The notes beneath the pieces are model-generated. The model had not been told where the DNA came from. It was given only the letters and a program-made list of their open reading frames with translations, and did no database searches. 64,000 bases of DNA, taken from positions 32,001 to 96,000 of the forward strand of contig JAWBKB010000001.1 in NCBI GenBank assembly GCA_038831915.1. Reading direction: 5' to 3'. The DNA is from Candidatus Caldarchaeum sp. GTDB taxonomy: Archaea > Thermoproteota > Nitrososphaeria_A > Caldarchaeales > Caldarchaeaceae. The position numbers and the translations under genes were made by a program. Shown here piece after piece: positions 24,173-38,403 of the stretch (positions are counted from its first letter, which is position 1; every line of letters starts with the position of its first letter).

Positions 24173-25657
24173 ATGTCTCATGGCGAGTTATGGAATGTTT
24201 TCTATGGCCGTCTCCAAAACTTCGTCAACGGCGAAATGATTGCTTCCCGTTCGGAGACGTGGCGTCCGGTTTACGACCCGGGGGCTGGCAGAGTGATCGG
24301 CGAAGTACCATATTCGACTCAGGAAGAAGTCGACGCGGCGGTTGAATCGGCGGCTGCTGCATTCGAGGAATGGAGCAGAAGACCGTTTCTGGAAAGAGTT
24401 CGTTATCTGTTTGAGATGAAACGGGTTATGGAGAACAGGTTTGAGGAAATCGTGGCTTTAAACACGTTGAACCATGGCAAAACTTTGGAAGAAAGCCGTG
24501 GAGATCTTCGGCGAGCTATTGAGAACATAGACGCAGCCATCGCGGCCGCATACACGCTTGCGAAAGGCGAAGTGATACATGAAATCGCCCCGAACATAGA
24601 TGAGCAAAGTGTCAGAGAGCCGTTGGGTGTTTTCGCAGTAATTACGCCGTTCAACTTCCCTGTGATGATTCCCTTCTGGTTTCTACCATATGCTATCGCG
24701 TTGGGCAACACCGTGGTTATCAAGCCCAGCGACATCACCCCCCTGCCGATGACAATGGTCGTCGACATACTGCATCGAGAGGTTAAGCTTCCCCCGGGAG
24801 TGGTCAACCTCGTTCACGGCGGAAAAGAAACAGCTGAAGCCTTGGTCAAACATCCAGAAGTAAAGGGAGTTTGCTTCGTCGGCTCGACACCCGTTGCTCA
24901 AAACATCTACAAACTGGCTGGAGAATACGGGAAAAGATGCATTGCGCAGGGCGGCGCCAAAAACTACATCGTGGTCATGCCGGACGCTGACATGGATGTA
25001 ACAATTCCCGCGGTCGTCTCCTCGTTCTTCGGAAACACGGGCCAAAGATGTCTGGCGGGAAGCAACCTACTCGTCGTAAACCAATCCTTTAAGGAAAAGT
25101 TTCTCACGAAATTCGCGACAAGGAGTAAACAGCTCGTTGTCGGCCACGGGTTGAGACAGGGTGTTGAAATGGGGCCGCTGGTCAGCTCCGCCGCGGTCAA
25201 AAGAGTCCGGTCATACGTGGATAAAGGTTTGGAAGAGGGCGCGGAGCTTGTGATCGACGGCCGAGAGGTTGCCGTCAAAGAATTTCCAAACGGGTTCTAC
25301 CTCGGGCCAAACATATTCGACGACGTAAGCCCTGACATGGTGATCGCCCAAGAGGAGATATTCGGGCCAGTAGCCTCCGTCATCACGTCAACCACACTCG
25401 ACGAAGCAATTGAAATCATCAACACCAAAACAGGGTACGGCAACATGGCCTGCATATTCACAACCAATGGCTCAAAAGCTTCAAAGTTCGCGAAAAGGGT
25501 GAACGCCGGAAATATCGGAATAAACATCGGCGTCGCGGCTCCAGCCGCGTACTTCCCGTTCGGCGGTAGACGAAACTCGTTCTACGGCGTCTTACACGGC
25601 CAAATAGATTCTGTCGATTTCTTCACAGACAAGAAAGTAATAATTTCGAGGTGGTAG
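24173..25657 (+). CDS. mmsA: CoA-acylating (methyl)malonate-semialdehyde dehydrogenase
   Basis: TPFNFP, FVGST, GGAKN, GQRCLA, EEIFGPV motifs and C-terminal SRW. Confidence 0.88.
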   Translation: MSHGELWNVFYGRLQNFVNGEMIASRSETWRPVYDPGAGRVIGEVPYSTQEEVDAAVESAAAAFEEWSRRPFLERVRYLFEMKRVMENRFEEIVALNTLNHGKTLEESRGDLRRAIENIDAAIAAAYTLAKGEVIHEIAPNIDEQSVREPLGVFAVITPFNFPVMIPFWFLPYAIALGNTVVIKPSDITPLPMTMVVDILHREVKLPPGVVNLVHGGKETAEALVKHPEVKGVCFVGSTPVAQNIYKLAGEYGKRCIAQGGAKNYIVVMPDADMDVTIPAVVSSFFGNTGQRCLAGSNLLVVNQSFKEKFLTKFATRSKQLVVGHGLRQGVEMGPLVSSAAVKRVRSYVDKGLEEGAELVIDGREVAVKEFPNGFYLGPNIFDDVSPDMVIAQEEIFGPVASVITSTTLDEAIEIINTKTGYGNMACIFTTNGSKASKFAKRVNAGNIGINIGVAAPAAYFPFGGRRNSFYGVLHGQIDSVDFFTDKKVIISRW

Positions 25658-25737
25658 CTGTCCCCCATCACTAACTCACCGCTTCATCGACGGGTGATGC
25701 ACCGTGTCTGCAGCGGAGCTTAAGGCATGATGGGGGC
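25656..25737 (-). ncRNA. Candidate H/ACA box pseudouridylation guide sRNA
   Basis: Minus strand: G-CCCCCAUCA-UGCCUUAAG-CUCCGCU-GCA-GA-C-hairpin-U-GA-AGCGGUGAG-UUAG-UGAUGGGGG-ACA. This gives a 9-bp basal stem, internal pocket, K-turn and ACA box. Confidence 0.8.
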
Positions 25738-25762
25738 ATACATAATAAATGCAAAGGTTGAT

Positions 25763-27421
25763 TTATTGTTGACGCTCGAAAAACTGCTGTAAAAATATCT
25801 CGAAGCAGGCGACTGGCATAGACAGTCCAATGTTCTCGAGAACTTTGGGTGAAACTTCGCCTGCGAAGCCAACCATTACGCCGTCGACGTTAATTGACGC
25901 ACAGCGGCCCGGTATGAAGATGCTTAACGAATACGGCGTGTACTCGGCTGTGTGGCCTATCATGTGTACAAGCTCGTCCACCGTGCTTTTCATCTCTGAG
26001 TATGATGCGTCGCTGTGGCATGTTGCCGCGGCAAGATGTTTTCTTCTAAATGTTTTTTCCGGTAGTGAGGGTTCGACGTGTATTACGTCGCCGATTTCGA
26101 AGATTTTCTGTGGATAGAGGTTGTCTTTGTTGAACGCGAGCGTTGACAGAACCGAGGGGGTGAGCAGAGTTCGAACCATGGTGTATTCGCGGGTCGCTGG
26201 GTTCGCCAGAGATACGTGGGGCTGTTCCTCCAGTTCCATGTGCTTGTAGTGCTGTGTCTCGTTCGTCAGCATGAGGTTGTGGACCTCTGTATAGCCTAGA
26301 CCGGTCATGATCTCGGCGGCTAATTCATAAAACTGCGTAGAGGGTAGAAGCTTTCCATAGGTGTTTGACTCTGGTTTTTGCGGAACCATGTTGTTGTAGC
26401 CGTATGCGATCGAAATGTCTTCGACGAGGTCGACTGGATGCATGATGTCGACGCGATACGCGGGATATCTTACCACGATTTTCCCATCCTTCACCCACCC
26501 ATCCAACCCCATTCTTCTCAGAAGCGAAACAGCCTGCCTGGCTGAAAGCGCGATACCTACAAGCTTCGAAGCAAGCCTGACATCAAGCTTGATCACGCCC
26601 TCCCTGAAATCAGGAGTGTAAACAGCTTTTCTTCCATAGACCACTTTTACATGCTGGACAGTTCCACCATGGTCGGCTAAAGCCGCCACAAGGATGTTCA
26701 GCGCTTGGTTGACTTTTTCCCATTCCGTCCCCGTTACGTCGATGAATATGTTTCTCCTGCCGGGGGTTAGCTCAGTTATGGCGGCGTTGACTATTGGCGG
26801 CATCGAAAAAACTTGGCCCTGTGAATCCACAATGACCGGTGCTTTTGGCTTATCTTTCAGGAGCCATGCGTGTTTGCGGCCGATTTCGCTTTTCTCCAAC
26901 ACCTCACCCGGCGTCATCGCTCTGTAATCTTTCAAAGGCACGAACTTCAGCTCGTCGAACCCAACGGCTTTATAGGTGAAAGGCGGCCTTATCGCTGCCA
27001 TGTCATGCAACCCAATCGCGGTTTTCCGCCTATTTCTTCCAATAATCCAGTGAAGGTCTTCCTGCATGGAAATGATGTCGATGAGGTCTTCTTCATCCAG
27101 CTTAACGTCCGAGACCACGGCGCAGGCGATGTAGGGCCTTATCGTCTGAACACTTGGGTCCACGAACATCGTTATTCTTGACTTGGTGAAAGAATACTTT
27201 GGTAGGCCGGTTTTGATTCCTAAGTAACTTCGTAGAGCCCGTGCAACTCCGTAAACGCTTGAGAAATCTGGTCTGTTGGGGTTGTATTCAACTCGGAGTA
27301 CGGAGTCCGTTTCTTCGACGCTCATACCGAGTTCGGCGATTTTTTCCGCGATTGTTTTGACGGGCATGTCTACGCCGAGAAGGCGTTTCATCTTTTCAAC
27401 ACGGATGTTTACAACCGGCAT
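25763..27421 (-). CDS. pheT: Phenylalanine--tRNA ligase beta subunit
   Basis: PNRPD, GRNRRKTAIGLHD, PAYRVDIMHPVDLVED motifs. Confidence 0.95.
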   Translation of the reverse strand: MPVVNIRVEKMKRLLGVDMPVKTIAEKIAELGMSVEETDSVLRVEYNPNRPDFSSVYGVARALRSYLGIKTGLPKYSFTKSRITMFVDPSVQTIRPYIACAVVSDVKLDEEDLIDIISMQEDLHWIIGRNRRKTAIGLHDMAAIRPPFTYKAVGFDELKFVPLKDYRAMTPGEVLEKSEIGRKHAWLLKDKPKAPVIVDSQGQVFSMPPIVNAAITELTPGRRNIFIDVTGTEWEKVNQALNILVAALADHGGTVQHVKVVYGRKAVYTPDFREGVIKLDVRLASKLVGIALSARQAVSLLRRMGLDGWVKDGKIVVRYPAYRVDIMHPVDLVEDISIAYGYNNMVPQKPESNTYGKLLPSTQFYELAAEIMTGLGYTEVHNLMLTNETQHYKHMELEEQPHVSLANPATREYTMVRTLLTPSVLSTLAFNKDNLYPQKIFEIGDVIHVEPSLPEKTFRRKHLAAATCHSDASYSEMKSTVDELVHMIGHTAEYTPYSLSIFIPGRCASINVDGVMVGFAGEVSPKVLENIGLSMPVACFEIFLQQFFERQQ

Positions 27422-37878: not shown

Positions 37879-38162
37879 TTAGACGTGACGGCTTGATTTT
37901 ATGGCCTGTGTATTTTGACGTTAAAGTTTCAAGGAATGAAGGCAGGCGTGTTCCGCAAAAGCTTGCCGTGAATAAAGTTTCTGTCGACGACTTGGCCAAG
38001 GTTTGTAAAAAGCTTGAGCTTGACGTTGAGAAGGTTGACGGAAGCCATCCACGGTTTTGGTTTCGAAAAACCGGATACGTAATTGTCAAACCACGTTCAA
38101 AGTTGTCGAAGCAGAGGTTGGTCAGAATAGTCGCCGAGGAGCTGGGAAAGCTTGGTGAATAA
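37875..38162 (+). CDS. srp19: Signal recognition particle protein SRP19
   Basis: LWPVYFD...SRNEGRRVP and HPRFW motifs. Confidence 0.93.
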   Translation: MIRRDGLILWPVYFDVKVSRNEGRRVPQKLAVNKVSVDDLAKVCKKLELDVEKVDGSHPRFWFRKTGYVIVKPRSKLSKQRLVRIVAEELGKLGE

Positions 38163-38403
38163 ACAGTCGTCGCTTCGGAGGCTGAAGCTTCTCGGCGAGG
38201 TTTTCCGCGTCGGGAGAACACGTGTCGTCGTAAAAGCATATCTGGTTCCAAAGCTCGCGGCCCGTGTTTACGATGGGAAGGGCAGGGAACTGGGTTATGT
38301 TTCGAACGTTTTTGGCCCCGTAACTTCACCATTTGTTTCGCTTAAGCTTTTGGAAGACCGGGAAGTGCGGGAAGGTGATGACATATATATAGAGAAAACA
38401 TGA
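38152..38403 (+). CDS. gar1: H/ACA RNP protein Gar1
   Basis: LGYVSNVFGPVTSPF motif; srp19-gar1-tfb gene context. Confidence 0.9.
   Translation: MVNKQSSLRRLKLLGEVFRVGRTRVVVKAYLVPKLAARVYDGKGRELGYVSNVFGPVTSPFVSLKLLEDREVREGDDIYIEKT

What the first reader, a model, noticed from the sequence alone, without database searches (positions are those of the whole stretch)
25656..25737. Unannotated H/ACA guide RNA apparently targeting LSU rRNA helix 69, at eukaryote-like pseudouridine sites
Seen in sequence: the ~105-nt gap between the convergent mmsA and pheT genes folds on the minus strand into a complete archaeal H/ACA hairpin. It has a basal stem CCCCCAUCA/UGAUGGGGG followed immediately by ACA (25661-25659), an internal pocket, an upper stem CCGCU/AGCGG, a consensus K-turn (3-nt bulge GCA, tandem GA/GA) for L7Ae, and an apical hairpin. 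The pocket strands are UGCCUUAAG (25727-25719) and (GA)GUUAG (25677-25671). From recalled consensus (the rRNA is not in this window), the TACK/eukaryotic LSU segment reads about GUAACUCUGAC-UCU-CUUAAGGUAGC. The 5' guide pairs 9 nt with CUUAAGGUA and the 3' guide pairs with CUGAC(UC), placing a U 14-16 nt from the ACA box. Inference: it guides pseudouridylation at the positions equivalent to yeast 25S Psi2264/Psi2266 (E. coli about 1921/1923), on the 3' strand of H69. gar1 lies in the same window.
Basis: partly seen in the sequence, partly recalled or inferred. Interest (0 to 1): 0.85.

Follow-up and report, generated by a model that had tools for sequence, protein, structure and literature searches.

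The report
Archaeal H/ACA guide RNA for helix 69
A small conserved RNA hairpin just downstream of pheT in a hot-spring archaeon is a classic pseudouridine guide RNA aimed at helix 69 of the large ribosomal RNA, which makes it a new member of a well-known class rather than a new kind of system.

Summary
The hairpin is real and lies at the stated coordinates (minus strand, 25737-25659). It is a classic single-hairpin archaeal H/ACA sRNA with a 9-bp lower stem directly followed by ACA, a pocket, a 6-bp upper stem, a K-turn and an apical hairpin. A covariance model finds one full-length copy per genome in 57 of 76 genomes of its class (named relatives are Ca. Caldarchaeum and Terraquivivens). Stems covary while both pocket strands stay conserved. 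The best rRNA target by far is the 3' strand of 23S helix 69, at U1921 and/or U1923 (E. coli numbering; yeast 2264/2266). In one genus whose 23S has C1921, the guide pocket is reshaped so that U1923 sits 14 nt from ACA, which is guide-target co-variation. It is not new in kind: Sulfolobus islandicus sR148 already guides the yeast-2266-equivalent pseudouridine, and orthologues in other classes resemble Pab40/HgcG motif 3. The host's own 23S is not assembled, and neither expression nor pseudouridine formation has been shown. In several relatives a homing-endonuclease intron splits the target exactly at the predicted site.

The parts
25659..25737 (-). Whole H/ACA sRNA hairpin, from G before the lower stem to the ACA box. 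The mature 3' end probably lies a few nt beyond ACA, which would be antisense to the stop codon of the convergent mmsA ORF.
   Evidence: CM R1 scores it 99.1 bits and R2 86.2 bits.
25761..25766 (-). TATA-like A/T box (ATAAAT) about 27 nt upstream of the hairpin. It overlaps the pheT stop codon (25765-25763) and is inferred to be the sRNA's own promoter.
   Evidence: An A/T-rich box lies at the same distance in 27 of 27 homologues printed. Promoter function is inferred, not shown.
25728..25736 (-). Lower stem H1, 5' strand (CCCCCAUCA).
   Evidence: In the 29-sequence alignment, 6 of 9 H1 pairs change on both sides and 98.5% of cells are paired.
25719..25727 (-). 5' guide (UGCCUUAAG). It pairs with 23S CUUAAGGUA, E. 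coli 1924-1932.
   Evidence: CCUUAAGC is invariant in 14 of 14 family-f1 sequences. Pairing was scored.
25713..25718 (-). Upper stem H2, 5' strand (CUCCGC). It pairs with 25682-25677; the second pair is U.U in this genome.
   Evidence: All 6 H2 pairs show changes on both sides in alignment A3. Position 29/68 reads U.U, A-U, U-A or C-G across relatives.
25709..25712 (-). K-turn, non-bulged strand (UGCA; relatives have N-C-G-A).
   Evidence: This genome has C where relatives have the G of the second G.A pair.
25689..25708 (-). K-turn canonical stem GAC/GUC plus apical stem GGUG/CACC and a triloop.
   Evidence: MFE. The apical pairs covary (U-A, U.G, C-G; G-C, U-A).
25683..25688 (-). K-turn bulged strand (GAU bulge, then G-A, then A).
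   Evidence: A59 U60 G61 A62 are invariant in 14 of 14. The orientation matches the HgcG motif 3 consensus.
25677..25682 (-). Upper stem H2, 3' strand (GCGGUG). Its last G (25677) could alternatively pair with rRNA C1922.
25671..25676 (-). 3' guide pocket strand (A-GUUAG). GUUAG pairs with 23S CUGAC, E. coli 1916-1920.
   Evidence: Relatives carry GUCGG or GUCAG, which keep pairing with CUGAC.
25662..25670 (-). Lower stem H1, 3' strand (UGAUGGGGG).
25659..25661 (-). ACA box (ANA), directly after H1 and 14 nt from the top paired nucleotide of the 3' guide.
   Evidence: ANA (ACA, AUA or AAA) is present in all 29 aligned homologues.
38152..38403 (+). gar1, one of the four H/ACA RNP protein genes. 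It is machinery in the same window, not part of the RNA gene.
   Evidence: Nop10 and Cbf5 (TruB_N) are found elsewhere in the genome.

Best explanation
This is the gene of a classic single-hairpin archaeal box H/ACA guide sRNA. It is transcribed from the minus strand, probably from its own TATA-like promoter that overlaps the pheT stop codon. Shown from sequence: the architecture is a 9-bp H1 followed by ACA, a pocket, a 6-bp H2, a K-turn and an apical hairpin. It is conserved with covariation, and it has bipartite complementarity to the 3' strand of 23S helix 69. Inferred: L7Ae binds the K-turn, and Cbf5-Nop10-Gar1 bind H1 and ACA. The 3' guide GUUAG pairs with CUGAC (E. coli 1916-1920) and the 5' guide UGCCUUAAG pairs with CUUAAGGUA (1924-1932). 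That leaves U1921-C1922-U1923 in the pocket. U1921 sits at the canonical ruler position, 14 nt from ACA, in a UNN configuration. U1923 is the alternative or second target; it would use 7+8 bp and lie 16 nt from ACA if the H2-closing C-G opens. My preferred mechanism is sequential modification of both alternate U's from one pocket, giving the equivalents of yeast Psi2264 and Psi2266. I put U1923 being modified at about 0.6, U1921 at about 0.55, and at least one of them at about 0.8.
For: (1) Fold: z -3.26, with 0 of 200 shuffles as stable.

(2) Conservation: blastn finds the element in 14 of 17 relatives of family f1. CM R1 finds it in 38 of 76 genomes of the class, and R2 in 57 of 76, as one full-length hit each.

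(3) Covariation: on the MAFFT alignment A2 (14 sequences), 12 of 22 pairs change on both sides and 88.3% of cells pair, against 41.7-50.2% when partners are slid; 0 of 500 shuffles reach this. On the model-fitted A3 (29 sequences) the figures are 16 of 22 pairs and 94.5%. The pocket strands stay conserved while the stems vary.

(4) Target scan of a relative's 16S and 23S: the H69 site scores 14.0 (U1923, 7+8 bp) and 13.0 (U1921, 5+9 bp). The next best site scores 10.0. Only 3 of 1000 shuffled guide pairs reach 14.0 anywhere.

(5) The target segment is identical in 4 of 4 same-genus 23S genes that cover it.

(6) Guide changes keep the pairing: GUUAG, GUCGG and GUCAG all pair with CUGAC, and CCUUGAG still pairs by G.U.

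(7) Ruler: in 29 of 34 class RNAs the nucleotide at -14 from ANA pairs with C1920, followed by 3-6 contiguous pairs. In the 2 RNAs examined from genus g8, whose 23S has C1921, the pocket is 8 nt and H1 is 7 bp. There GGGUCAG pairs with CUGACCC, which puts U1923 at -14 with a canonical UN.

(8) Genus g5 also has C1921 and shows no orthologue in 0 of 8 genomes.

(9) The machinery is present: Gar1, Nop10 and Cbf5.

(10) Precedents in print. H2 of 5-6 bp, an ANA-to-U distance of 14-15 nt and a functional UNN are reported in PMC2377435 (abstract passage; section 22 passages read). One pocket modifying two alternate U's of an unpaired UNUN is reported in PMC7075261 (abstract, sections 8 and 18 read). 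S. islandicus sR148 guides 23S U2060 and U2066, noted as yeast 2260 and 2266, in PMC11077068 (sections 17 and 19 read).
Against: The host assembly has no 23S (0 matches at 95.6% completeness), so the target is taken from relatives.

There is no Rfam match at gathering score, nor at E<=10 on this strand.

Neither candidate U gives the textbook geometry. U1921 needs three unpaired nucleotides. U1923 lies 16 nt from ACA and needs the invariant C28-G69 pair to open.

The K-turn of this particular copy has A.C in place of one G.A pair.

In genus g7 the 3' guide GUUCG gives only 3 contiguous pairs.

The 3' guide of this copy also pairs perfectly (6 Watson-Crick pairs) with UAACUC (1911-1916), so a loop target is not excluded.

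Three of 1000 shuffles matched the target score.

A3 is fitted to the model, R2 was built from R1's hits, and E-values are rough.

In 6 relatives examined an intron splits the target between the two guide arms, so only spliced rRNA can be a full substrate.
Confidence: 0.8

Rival explanations
1. It is an H/ACA guide, but its working target is the helix 69 loop (U1915/U1917), as for its orthologues in other classes and for Pab40 motif 3. It would use mainly the 3' guide, and the 5' guide match to 1924-1932 would be secondary.
For: GAGUUA pairs with UAACUC (1911-1916) by 6 Watson-Crick pairs (read). Orthologues in other classes keep the same 3' pocket: 21 of 21 have GU[UC][AG]G. Eleven of 20 loci scanned give sub-threshold HgcG/Pab40 matches over motif 3, whose validated target is U2016 in the H69 loop (PMC2377435, Table 1 and section 26 read). 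S. islandicus sR148 uses a single 3' guide for both U2060 and U2066 (PMC11077068, section 19 read). Pairing to the 3' guide matters more than pairing to the 5' guide (PMC2377435 abstract passage; PMC7075261 section heading seen).
Against: The 5' guide CCUUAAGC is invariant in 14 of 14 f1 sequences and matches 1924-1932 by 9 pairs, but gives only 2 pairs in the loop register. GUCGG and GUCAG in families f4 and f2 cannot pair with UAAC. The g8 guide co-varies with C1921. The scan, which required at least 3 pairs on the 5' side, did not list a loop site.
Confidence: 0.08
2. It assembles an H/ACA RNP that acts mainly as an RNA chaperone, or as an exon tether, at the helix 69 / intron-insertion site during 23S maturation. 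Pseudouridylation would be absent or incidental.
For: The two guide arms pair with the last nucleotides of exon 1 and the first of exon 2 of an intron found at UCU(C)|(C)UUAAGG in G009, G010, G004, G014, G031 and G036. The non-canonical UNN geometry could reduce catalysis.
Against: G012 (same genus) and all 4 g7 genomes with an assembled 23S have the guide but no intron at this site. The ACA ruler and pocket dimensions are held as in catalytic guides, and they were re-tuned in g8 to present a U. No test of tethering was possible.
Confidence: 0.04
3. It is not a guide RNA at all. It is a structured 3' end element, such as a terminator or stability hairpin, shared by the convergent pheT and mmsA genes.
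For: It fills the 105-nt gap between two convergent ORFs. T-runs follow it in several relatives. There is no Rfam hit.
Against: A terminator hairpin would not keep single-stranded pocket sequences invariant while its stems covary. It would not keep an ANA box, a K-turn and fixed 15-nt spacing. It would not match rRNA better than 997 of 1000 shuffles. mmsA is the neighbour in only 4 of 31 related genomes. A TATA-like box precedes the hairpin at a fixed distance in 27 of 27.
Confidence: 0.03

Closest known systems
Sulfolobus islandicus sR148 (atypical H/ACA RNA; PMC11077068, sections 17 and 19 read)
   Same: A Cbf5-associated guide for the 3' strand of helix 69. Its deletion removes 23S Psi2066 (listed as yeast Psi2266, which is U1923 here) and Psi2060 (E. 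coli 1917). It relies on a short 3' guide duplex with the ...GACUC tract.
   Different: [quoted passage not shown] The RNA here is a classic hairpin with H1, ACA and a strong, invariant 9-nt 5' guide. I did not see the sR148 sequence (figures are not held), so homology was not tested.
Pab40 / HgcG motif 3 (Pf7), Rfam RF00064
   Same: It shares the 3' pocket U-GUUA, the same 15-nt span from H2 to ACA and the same K-turn orientation. Orthologues of this RNA in other classes hit the motif 3 part of the model, and it is a helix 69 guide (U2016, in vitro +++; PMC2377435 Table 1).
   Different: HgcG is a three-hairpin RNA of Thermococcales that targets the H69 loop. This copy gives no HgcG match even at E<=10. 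Orthologue scores are 14.6-29.3 bits against a gathering score of 77. The 5' guide differs.
Haloferax volcanii sR-h45 stem-loop 2 (PMC7075261; abstract, sections 8 and 18 read)
   Same: One pocket holds an unpaired U-N-U(-N) of helix 69 and converts both alternate U's sequentially, and it needs the ACA box. This is the mechanistic precedent for U1921 plus U1923.
   Different: It acts on the loop U's (1940/1942, E. coli 1915/1917) and is part of a two-hairpin RNA. No sequence relation was tested.
Yeast snR3 and snR84 (guides for 25S Psi2264 and Psi2266; assignment recalled, from no call)
   Same: The same two rRNA positions.
   Different: They are eukaryotic two-hairpin snoRNAs without a K-turn, using two separate guides. 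No homology is claimed.

Membership tests
Archaeal box H/ACA guide sRNA (classic hairpin) | Lower stem directly followed by an ANA (usually ACA) box | tested here: met
   A 9-bp H1 followed by ACA at 25661-25659. ANA is present in 29 of 29 aligned homologues.
Archaeal box H/ACA guide sRNA (classic hairpin) | Internal pocket whose two strands pair with an rRNA on either side of an unpaired U | tested here: met
   The H69 site scores 14.0 and 13.0 against a next best of 10.0, and 3 of 1000 shuffles reach 14.0. The unpaired stretch is UN (U1923) or UNN (U1921), so it is not the textbook case for both.
Archaeal box H/ACA guide sRNA (classic hairpin) | Upper stem of 5-6 bp between pocket and K-turn (rule from PMC2377435) | tested here: met
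   Six pairs (one is U.U in this genome) plus one non-Watson-Crick pair before the G.A pairs. All 6 pairs covary.
Archaeal box H/ACA guide sRNA (classic hairpin) | K-turn or K-loop with tandem sheared G.A pairs for L7Ae | tested here: inconclusive
   The consensus K-turn (C-G-A|GAC / GUC-NAU-G-A) is present in relatives. This copy has C instead of the G of the second pair. That L7Ae tolerates this is recalled, not tested.
Archaeal box H/ACA guide sRNA (classic hairpin) | Target U 14-16 nt from ANA | tested here: met
   14 nt for U1921 and 16 nt for U1923. In genus g8 it is 14 nt for U1923.
Archaeal box H/ACA guide sRNA (classic hairpin) | Cbf5, Nop10, Gar1 and L7Ae encoded by the organism and bound to the RNA | tested here: inconclusive
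   Gar1, Nop10 and TruB_N/Cbf5 genes were found. L7Ae was not searched. Binding is not testable here.
Archaeal box H/ACA guide sRNA (classic hairpin) | Expressed as a discrete small RNA, with pseudouridine formed at the target | not testable with these tools
   Only contigs of one metatranscriptome were available. No modification data exist for this lineage in the papers searched.
Rfam RF00064 HgcG (Pab40) | Score at or above the gathering threshold (77 bits) | tested here: not met
   This copy gives no match. Orthologues in other classes score 14.6-29.3 bits. It works like motif 3 but is not a member by Rfam's criterion.

The most novel reading that the evidence does not exclude
The guide's two arms pair with the two exons that flank a LAGLIDADG homing-endonuclease intron inserted exactly at the predicted Psi-N dinucleotide of helix 69. 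The most novel reading is that the RNP therefore reads out, or promotes, correct exon ligation of 23S rRNA. It would tether the exon ends, or mark only spliced molecules, and then write two eukaryote-type pseudouridines (1921 and 1923) from one pocket. On this reading the guide, the rRNA and the intron homing site co-evolve. The g8 retuning after U1921C is the visible trace of that.
Probability: 0.07. Interest if true: 0.75.

Novelty: new member of a known kind. Interest (0 to 1): 0.45.

Why it matters
It gives this hot-spring lineage (named relatives Ca. Caldarchaeum and Terraquivivens, the 'Aigarchaeota') a concrete, testable H/ACA guide. My literature searches found no H/ACA RNA or pseudouridine map described for the group.

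It extends the evidence that pseudouridines on the 3' strand of helix 69, long viewed as eukaryotic, are widespread in this archaeal phylum and are made by classic as well as atypical guides.

It shows a pheT-linked guide gene kept across classes while its 5' guide was replaced.

It offers a clean natural example of guide-rRNA co-variation (U1921C with a re-dimensioned pocket). That example can be used to test the 14-nt ruler and the one-pocket, two-site mechanism.

It does not change the picture of how H/ACA RNPs work.

Tried and rejected
Rfam gave nothing. At gathering score there were 0 matches in the whole window. At E<=10 on 25500-25900 the only match was a plus-strand plant C/D family (snoR71, E 0.66, 17.5 bits against 40), which I reject as chance.

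The host's own 23S was not found in the assembly, so the target could not be checked in the host itself.

My descriptor scan for further H/ACA hairpins in the genome was too strict. It missed even this RNA, and its yield (3 hits in C1-C6) matched the shuffled control (2 hits), so I discarded it.

A relaxed R2 search of the host genome gave one extra partial hit (C12, E 0.32). It lies in what reads as coding sequence, and I rejected it.

A relaxed R2 search of 5 family-f2 genomes gave only weak hits. The best two (L124, L125) are a different H/ACA-like hairpin, not next to pheT.

For expression, one metatranscriptome (X11, kept as contigs) holds parts of the neighbouring ORFs but has no contig over the hairpin. 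Contigs cannot show absence, so this counts neither for nor against.

It is not conserved in relatives that lack the extra nucleotide, and it would invert the K-turn relative to HgcG.

Supplements of PMC11077068 (Table S4, conservation of sites across archaea) and the figures of all papers were not available. They may show whether a 1921-equivalent pseudouridine has been seen elsewhere, and what the sR148 sequence is.

The Pyrobaculum H/ACA-like paper in the journal RNA (2012; recalled) was not in the library (listing), so its target list was not seen.
Full report
**Observation.** On the minus strand, 25737-25659 reads G-CCCCCAUCA-UGCCUUAAG-CUCCGC-UGCA-GAC-AC-GGUG-CAU-CACC-C-GUC-GAUGAA-GCGGUG-AGUUAG-UGAUGGGGG-ACA. 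It fills the 105-nt gap between a plus-strand ORF ending at 25657 and a minus-strand ORF ending at 25763. The plus-strand ORF is a methylmalonate-semialdehyde dehydrogenase (TIGR01722, 473.7 bits against a cut-off of 448.5). The minus-strand ORF is PheT, with PheS behind it. The RNA is on the same strand as pheT and starts about 25 nt after its stop codon. The 96-nt stretch folds at -36.1 kcal/mol, with z = -3.26 and 0 of 200 dinucleotide shuffles as stable.

**What Rfam and the host genome say.** No Rfam family matches the window at gathering score, and none matches this strand at E<=10. The host assembly has 34 contigs, 1.59 Mb and 95.6% completeness. It holds a 16S but no 23S, so the rRNA target had to be read from relatives. 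Gar1 (window 38152-38403), Nop10 and Cbf5 are encoded. L7Ae was not searched.

**Conservation and structure.** blastn finds the element in 14 of 17 other genomes of family f1. On a plain MAFFT alignment of 14 sequences, my structure (H1 9 bp, H2 6 bp, K-turn stem 3 bp, apical stem 4 bp) has 88.3% of cells paired. Slid partners give 41.7-50.2%. Twelve of 22 pairs change on both sides, and 0 of 500 shuffles reach this. CM R1 built from that alignment finds one full-length hit in 38 of 76 genomes of the class. R2 was built from 29 of those hits (fitted alignment: 94.5% paired, 16 of 22 pairs with changes on both sides). It finds one hit in 57 of 76 genomes: f1 14/17 plus the host, f2 8/19, f3 3/4 and f4 31/35. 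While the stems covary, CCUUAAGC, the GA/AUGA K-turn letters and G-GUU of the 3' pocket are invariant in family f1.

The span from H2 to ANA is 15 nt in most copies (16 in a few, such as L063, L064 and L066), while the 5' pocket strand varies from 8 to 11 nt. This is what a ruler from the ACA box predicts. Covariation at positions 29/68 (U.U, A-U, U-A, C-G) shows that H2 has six pairs closed by an invariant C-G.

The conserved K-turn has its G.A pairs next to H2 and its canonical stem (GAC/GUC) on the apical side, with the bulge N-A-U on the 3' strand. This genome alone has C for the G of the second G.A pair.

**Lineage, promoter and synteny.** A pattern scan of species-representative genomes returned 16 places. 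Thirteen are archaeal records titled Candidatus Caldarchaeum, Candidatus Terraquivivens, Nitrososphaerota archaeon, Archaeon HR01 or uncultured archaeon. All 13, and none of the 3 bacterial places, are confirmed by R2. Public runs that hold the DNA are hot-spring metagenomes.

An A/T-rich box sits about 27 nt upstream of the hairpin in 27 of 27 homologues printed. In the window it is ATAAAT at 25766-25761, overlapping the pheT stop codon. I infer that the RNA has its own archaeal promoter.

A PheT match lies upstream on the same strand in 28 of 31 class genomes. It lies within about 75 nt in 26 of them, at 234 nt in G001 and at about 1.1 kb in G068. It is absent in G003, G008 and G019. It also lies about 200 nt upstream in 3 of 5 loci from other classes, but in none of 7 further f2/f3 loci. 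mmsA is the other neighbour in only 4 genomes.

**Target.** Mature 23S of relatives reads GGGAGUAACUCUGACUCUCUUAAGGUAGCC. The segment is identical in the exons of all 4 same-genus genes that cover it. I number it by my own alignment to recalled E. coli and yeast sequences. I cross-checked the numbering against Table 1 of PMC11077068, where two S. islandicus sites 6 nt apart are noted as E. coli 1917/yeast 2260 and yeast 2266. On that numbering the U's are 1915, 1917, 1921 and 1923.

I scanned every U of a relative's 16S and 23S, plus a same-genus 16S, with the bipartite guide. The H69 site scores 14.0 (CUGACUC-UC-UUAAGGUA, U1923) and 13.0 (CUGAC-UCU-CUUAAGGUA, U1921). The next site scores 10.0, and 3 of 1000 shuffled guides reach 14.0 anywhere.

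Guide variants in other genera keep the pairing. GUCGG and GUCAG pair with CUGAC, and CCUUGAG pairs by G.U. GUUCG in genus g7 has one mismatch.

**Which U.** Muller et al. (PMC2377435; abstract passage, passages of sections 22 and 31, and sections 18 and 26 read) found H2 of 5-6 bp and an ANA-to-U distance of 14-15 nt, and showed that a UNN trinucleotide works. Here, in 29 of 34 class RNAs, the nucleotide 14 nt before ANA pairs with C1920. U1921 is therefore the first unpaired residue, U1921-C1922-U1923 lie in the pocket, and the 5' guide starts at C1924.

Genus g8 is the informative exception. Its 23S has C1921 in G027, G034 and G036. In its guide, H1 is shortened to 7 bp and the 3' pocket lengthened to 8 nt. 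GGGUCAG pairs with CUGACCC by seven Watson-Crick pairs, U1923-C1924 are left unpaired, and GCCUUAG pairs with UUAAGGU. That places U1923 exactly 14 nt from ACA.

Genus g5 also has C1921. It shows no orthologue in 0 of 8 genomes, nor in a relaxed search of 3.

This co-variation ties the RNA to this rRNA segment. It also suggests that U1923 was already a substrate before the retuning.

Two published cases bear on this. In H. volcanii, one pocket converts both alternate U's of an unpaired UNUN in order and needs the ACA box (PMC7075261; abstract, sections 8 and 18 read). In S. islandicus, deletion of sR148 removes Psi2066, the yeast-2266 equivalent (PMC11077068, sections 17 and 19 read).

Taking these together, I favour sequential modification of U1921 and then U1923. 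The data cannot separate this from either single site.

**Relatives outside the class.** R2 also finds one full-length hit in 45 of 132 sampled genomes of other classes of the phylum. All 21 that I aligned keep the 3' pocket GU[UC][AG]G. However, 18 of 21 have a 5' pocket ending in GAG, such as GAGAGAG or UUAAGAG. That pairs with the CUCUCUU tract (1920-1926 or 1922-1928).

Eleven of 20 loci scanned give sub-threshold matches (14.6-29.3 bits against 77) to the motif 3 part of HgcG/Pab40. The validated target of that motif is U2016 in the H69 loop (PMC2377435, Table 1).

Helix 69 carries a quasi-repeat, UAACUC-U and UGACUC-U, and the 3' guide G(A/U)GUUA fits both copies. I read the family as an old, often pheT-linked helix 69 guide. 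Its 5' guide was replaced in this class (f3 keeps an AAGAG-type 5' guide), and that replacement fixed the register on the 3' strand. A residual loop activity of this copy is the main rival reading.

**Intron at the target.** In G009, G010, G004, G014, G031 and G036 the 23S gene is interrupted at UCU(C)|(C)UUAAGG, which is exactly the predicted Psi-N position. The insert is about 0.76-1.14 kb. In the four analysed it holds an ORF of 210-372 codons with a LAGLIDADG-like motif (read by eye; no Pfam scan was run). Its first roughly 30 nt pair with the H69 strand and co-vary with C1921 in G036. A second intron site, after CUCUUAA, occurs in G013, G200, G116 and G123.

The guide can therefore bind both arms only on spliced rRNA. 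Whether that is more than a coincidence of two systems homing on a conserved site is open.

**Verdict.** This is a real, conserved, previously undescribed classic H/ACA guide sRNA, as far as Rfam and the searched papers show. Its target on the 3' strand of helix 69 is well supported. It is a new member of a known kind. The eukaryote-like site is already documented in Sulfolobus, so the surprise is moderate. Expression, protein binding and pseudouridine formation are inferred, not shown.

Noticed in passing
L031 (G009), L032 (G010), L034 (G004), L035 (G014), L140 (G031), L142 (G036): 23S genes of relatives: An intron of about 0.76-1.14 kb is inserted in helix 69 at UCU(C)|(C)UUAAGG, exactly between the two rRNA segments that the guide arms pair with. 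In the four analysed it holds a 210-372 codon ORF with a LAGLIDADG-like motif (by eye; no Pfam scan). The first ~30 nt of the intron pair with the H69 3' strand and co-vary with it (GACCCUC with GGGGGUC in G036).
   Followed up: partly
L010 (G013), L100 (G200), L102 (G116), L103 (G123): A second intron site lies a few nt downstream (after CUCUUAA, before GGUAGCC), with inserts of about 60-580 nt. It occurs in this class and in other classes of the phylum.
   Followed up: no
G000:C4:958-2850 (L040), outside the window: The host's 16S match spans 1893 nt for a 1478-position model and scores only 474 bits, which suggests one or more insertions (introns?). The 23S is missing from the assembly altogether.
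   Followed up: no
L124 (G021:C8:4603-4691) and L125 (G018:C1:442981-443069): Genus g5 has a different H/ACA-like hairpin: an 8-9 bp lower stem followed by AUA, an upper stem UCACCGCC/GGCGGUGA, an AUGA K-turn strand and a 3' pocket UAUCCG. It is not next to pheT, and its target was not sought.
   Followed up: partly
window 25727: Contigs of two other hot-spring metagenome runs (X5, X6) read G instead of A on the plus strand here. This changes the first nucleotide of the 5' guide (U to C on the RNA), as in relative G001. That is the outermost guide-target pair, so the effect is minor.
   Followed up: no
window 25761-25766 and the same offset in L041-L070: A TATA-like A/T box at a fixed distance upstream of the hairpin overlaps the pheT stop codon, so the promoter of the sRNA would be embedded in the end of the coding gene.
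   Followed up: partly
L041 (G001): The end of the PheT match lies 234 nt upstream of the RNA. Yet the 50 nt just upstream of the RNA resemble the end of the host's pheT. This may be a small duplication or rearrangement.
   Followed up: no
L141 (G034), L009 (G027), L142 (G036): 23S of genus g8: The helix 69 loop reads GUAAUCCUGAC instead of GUAACUCUGAC, so the U at E. coli position 1915 is also replaced (by my numbering). The rRNA of this genus has lost two of the four helix 69 U's discussed here.
   Followed up: no
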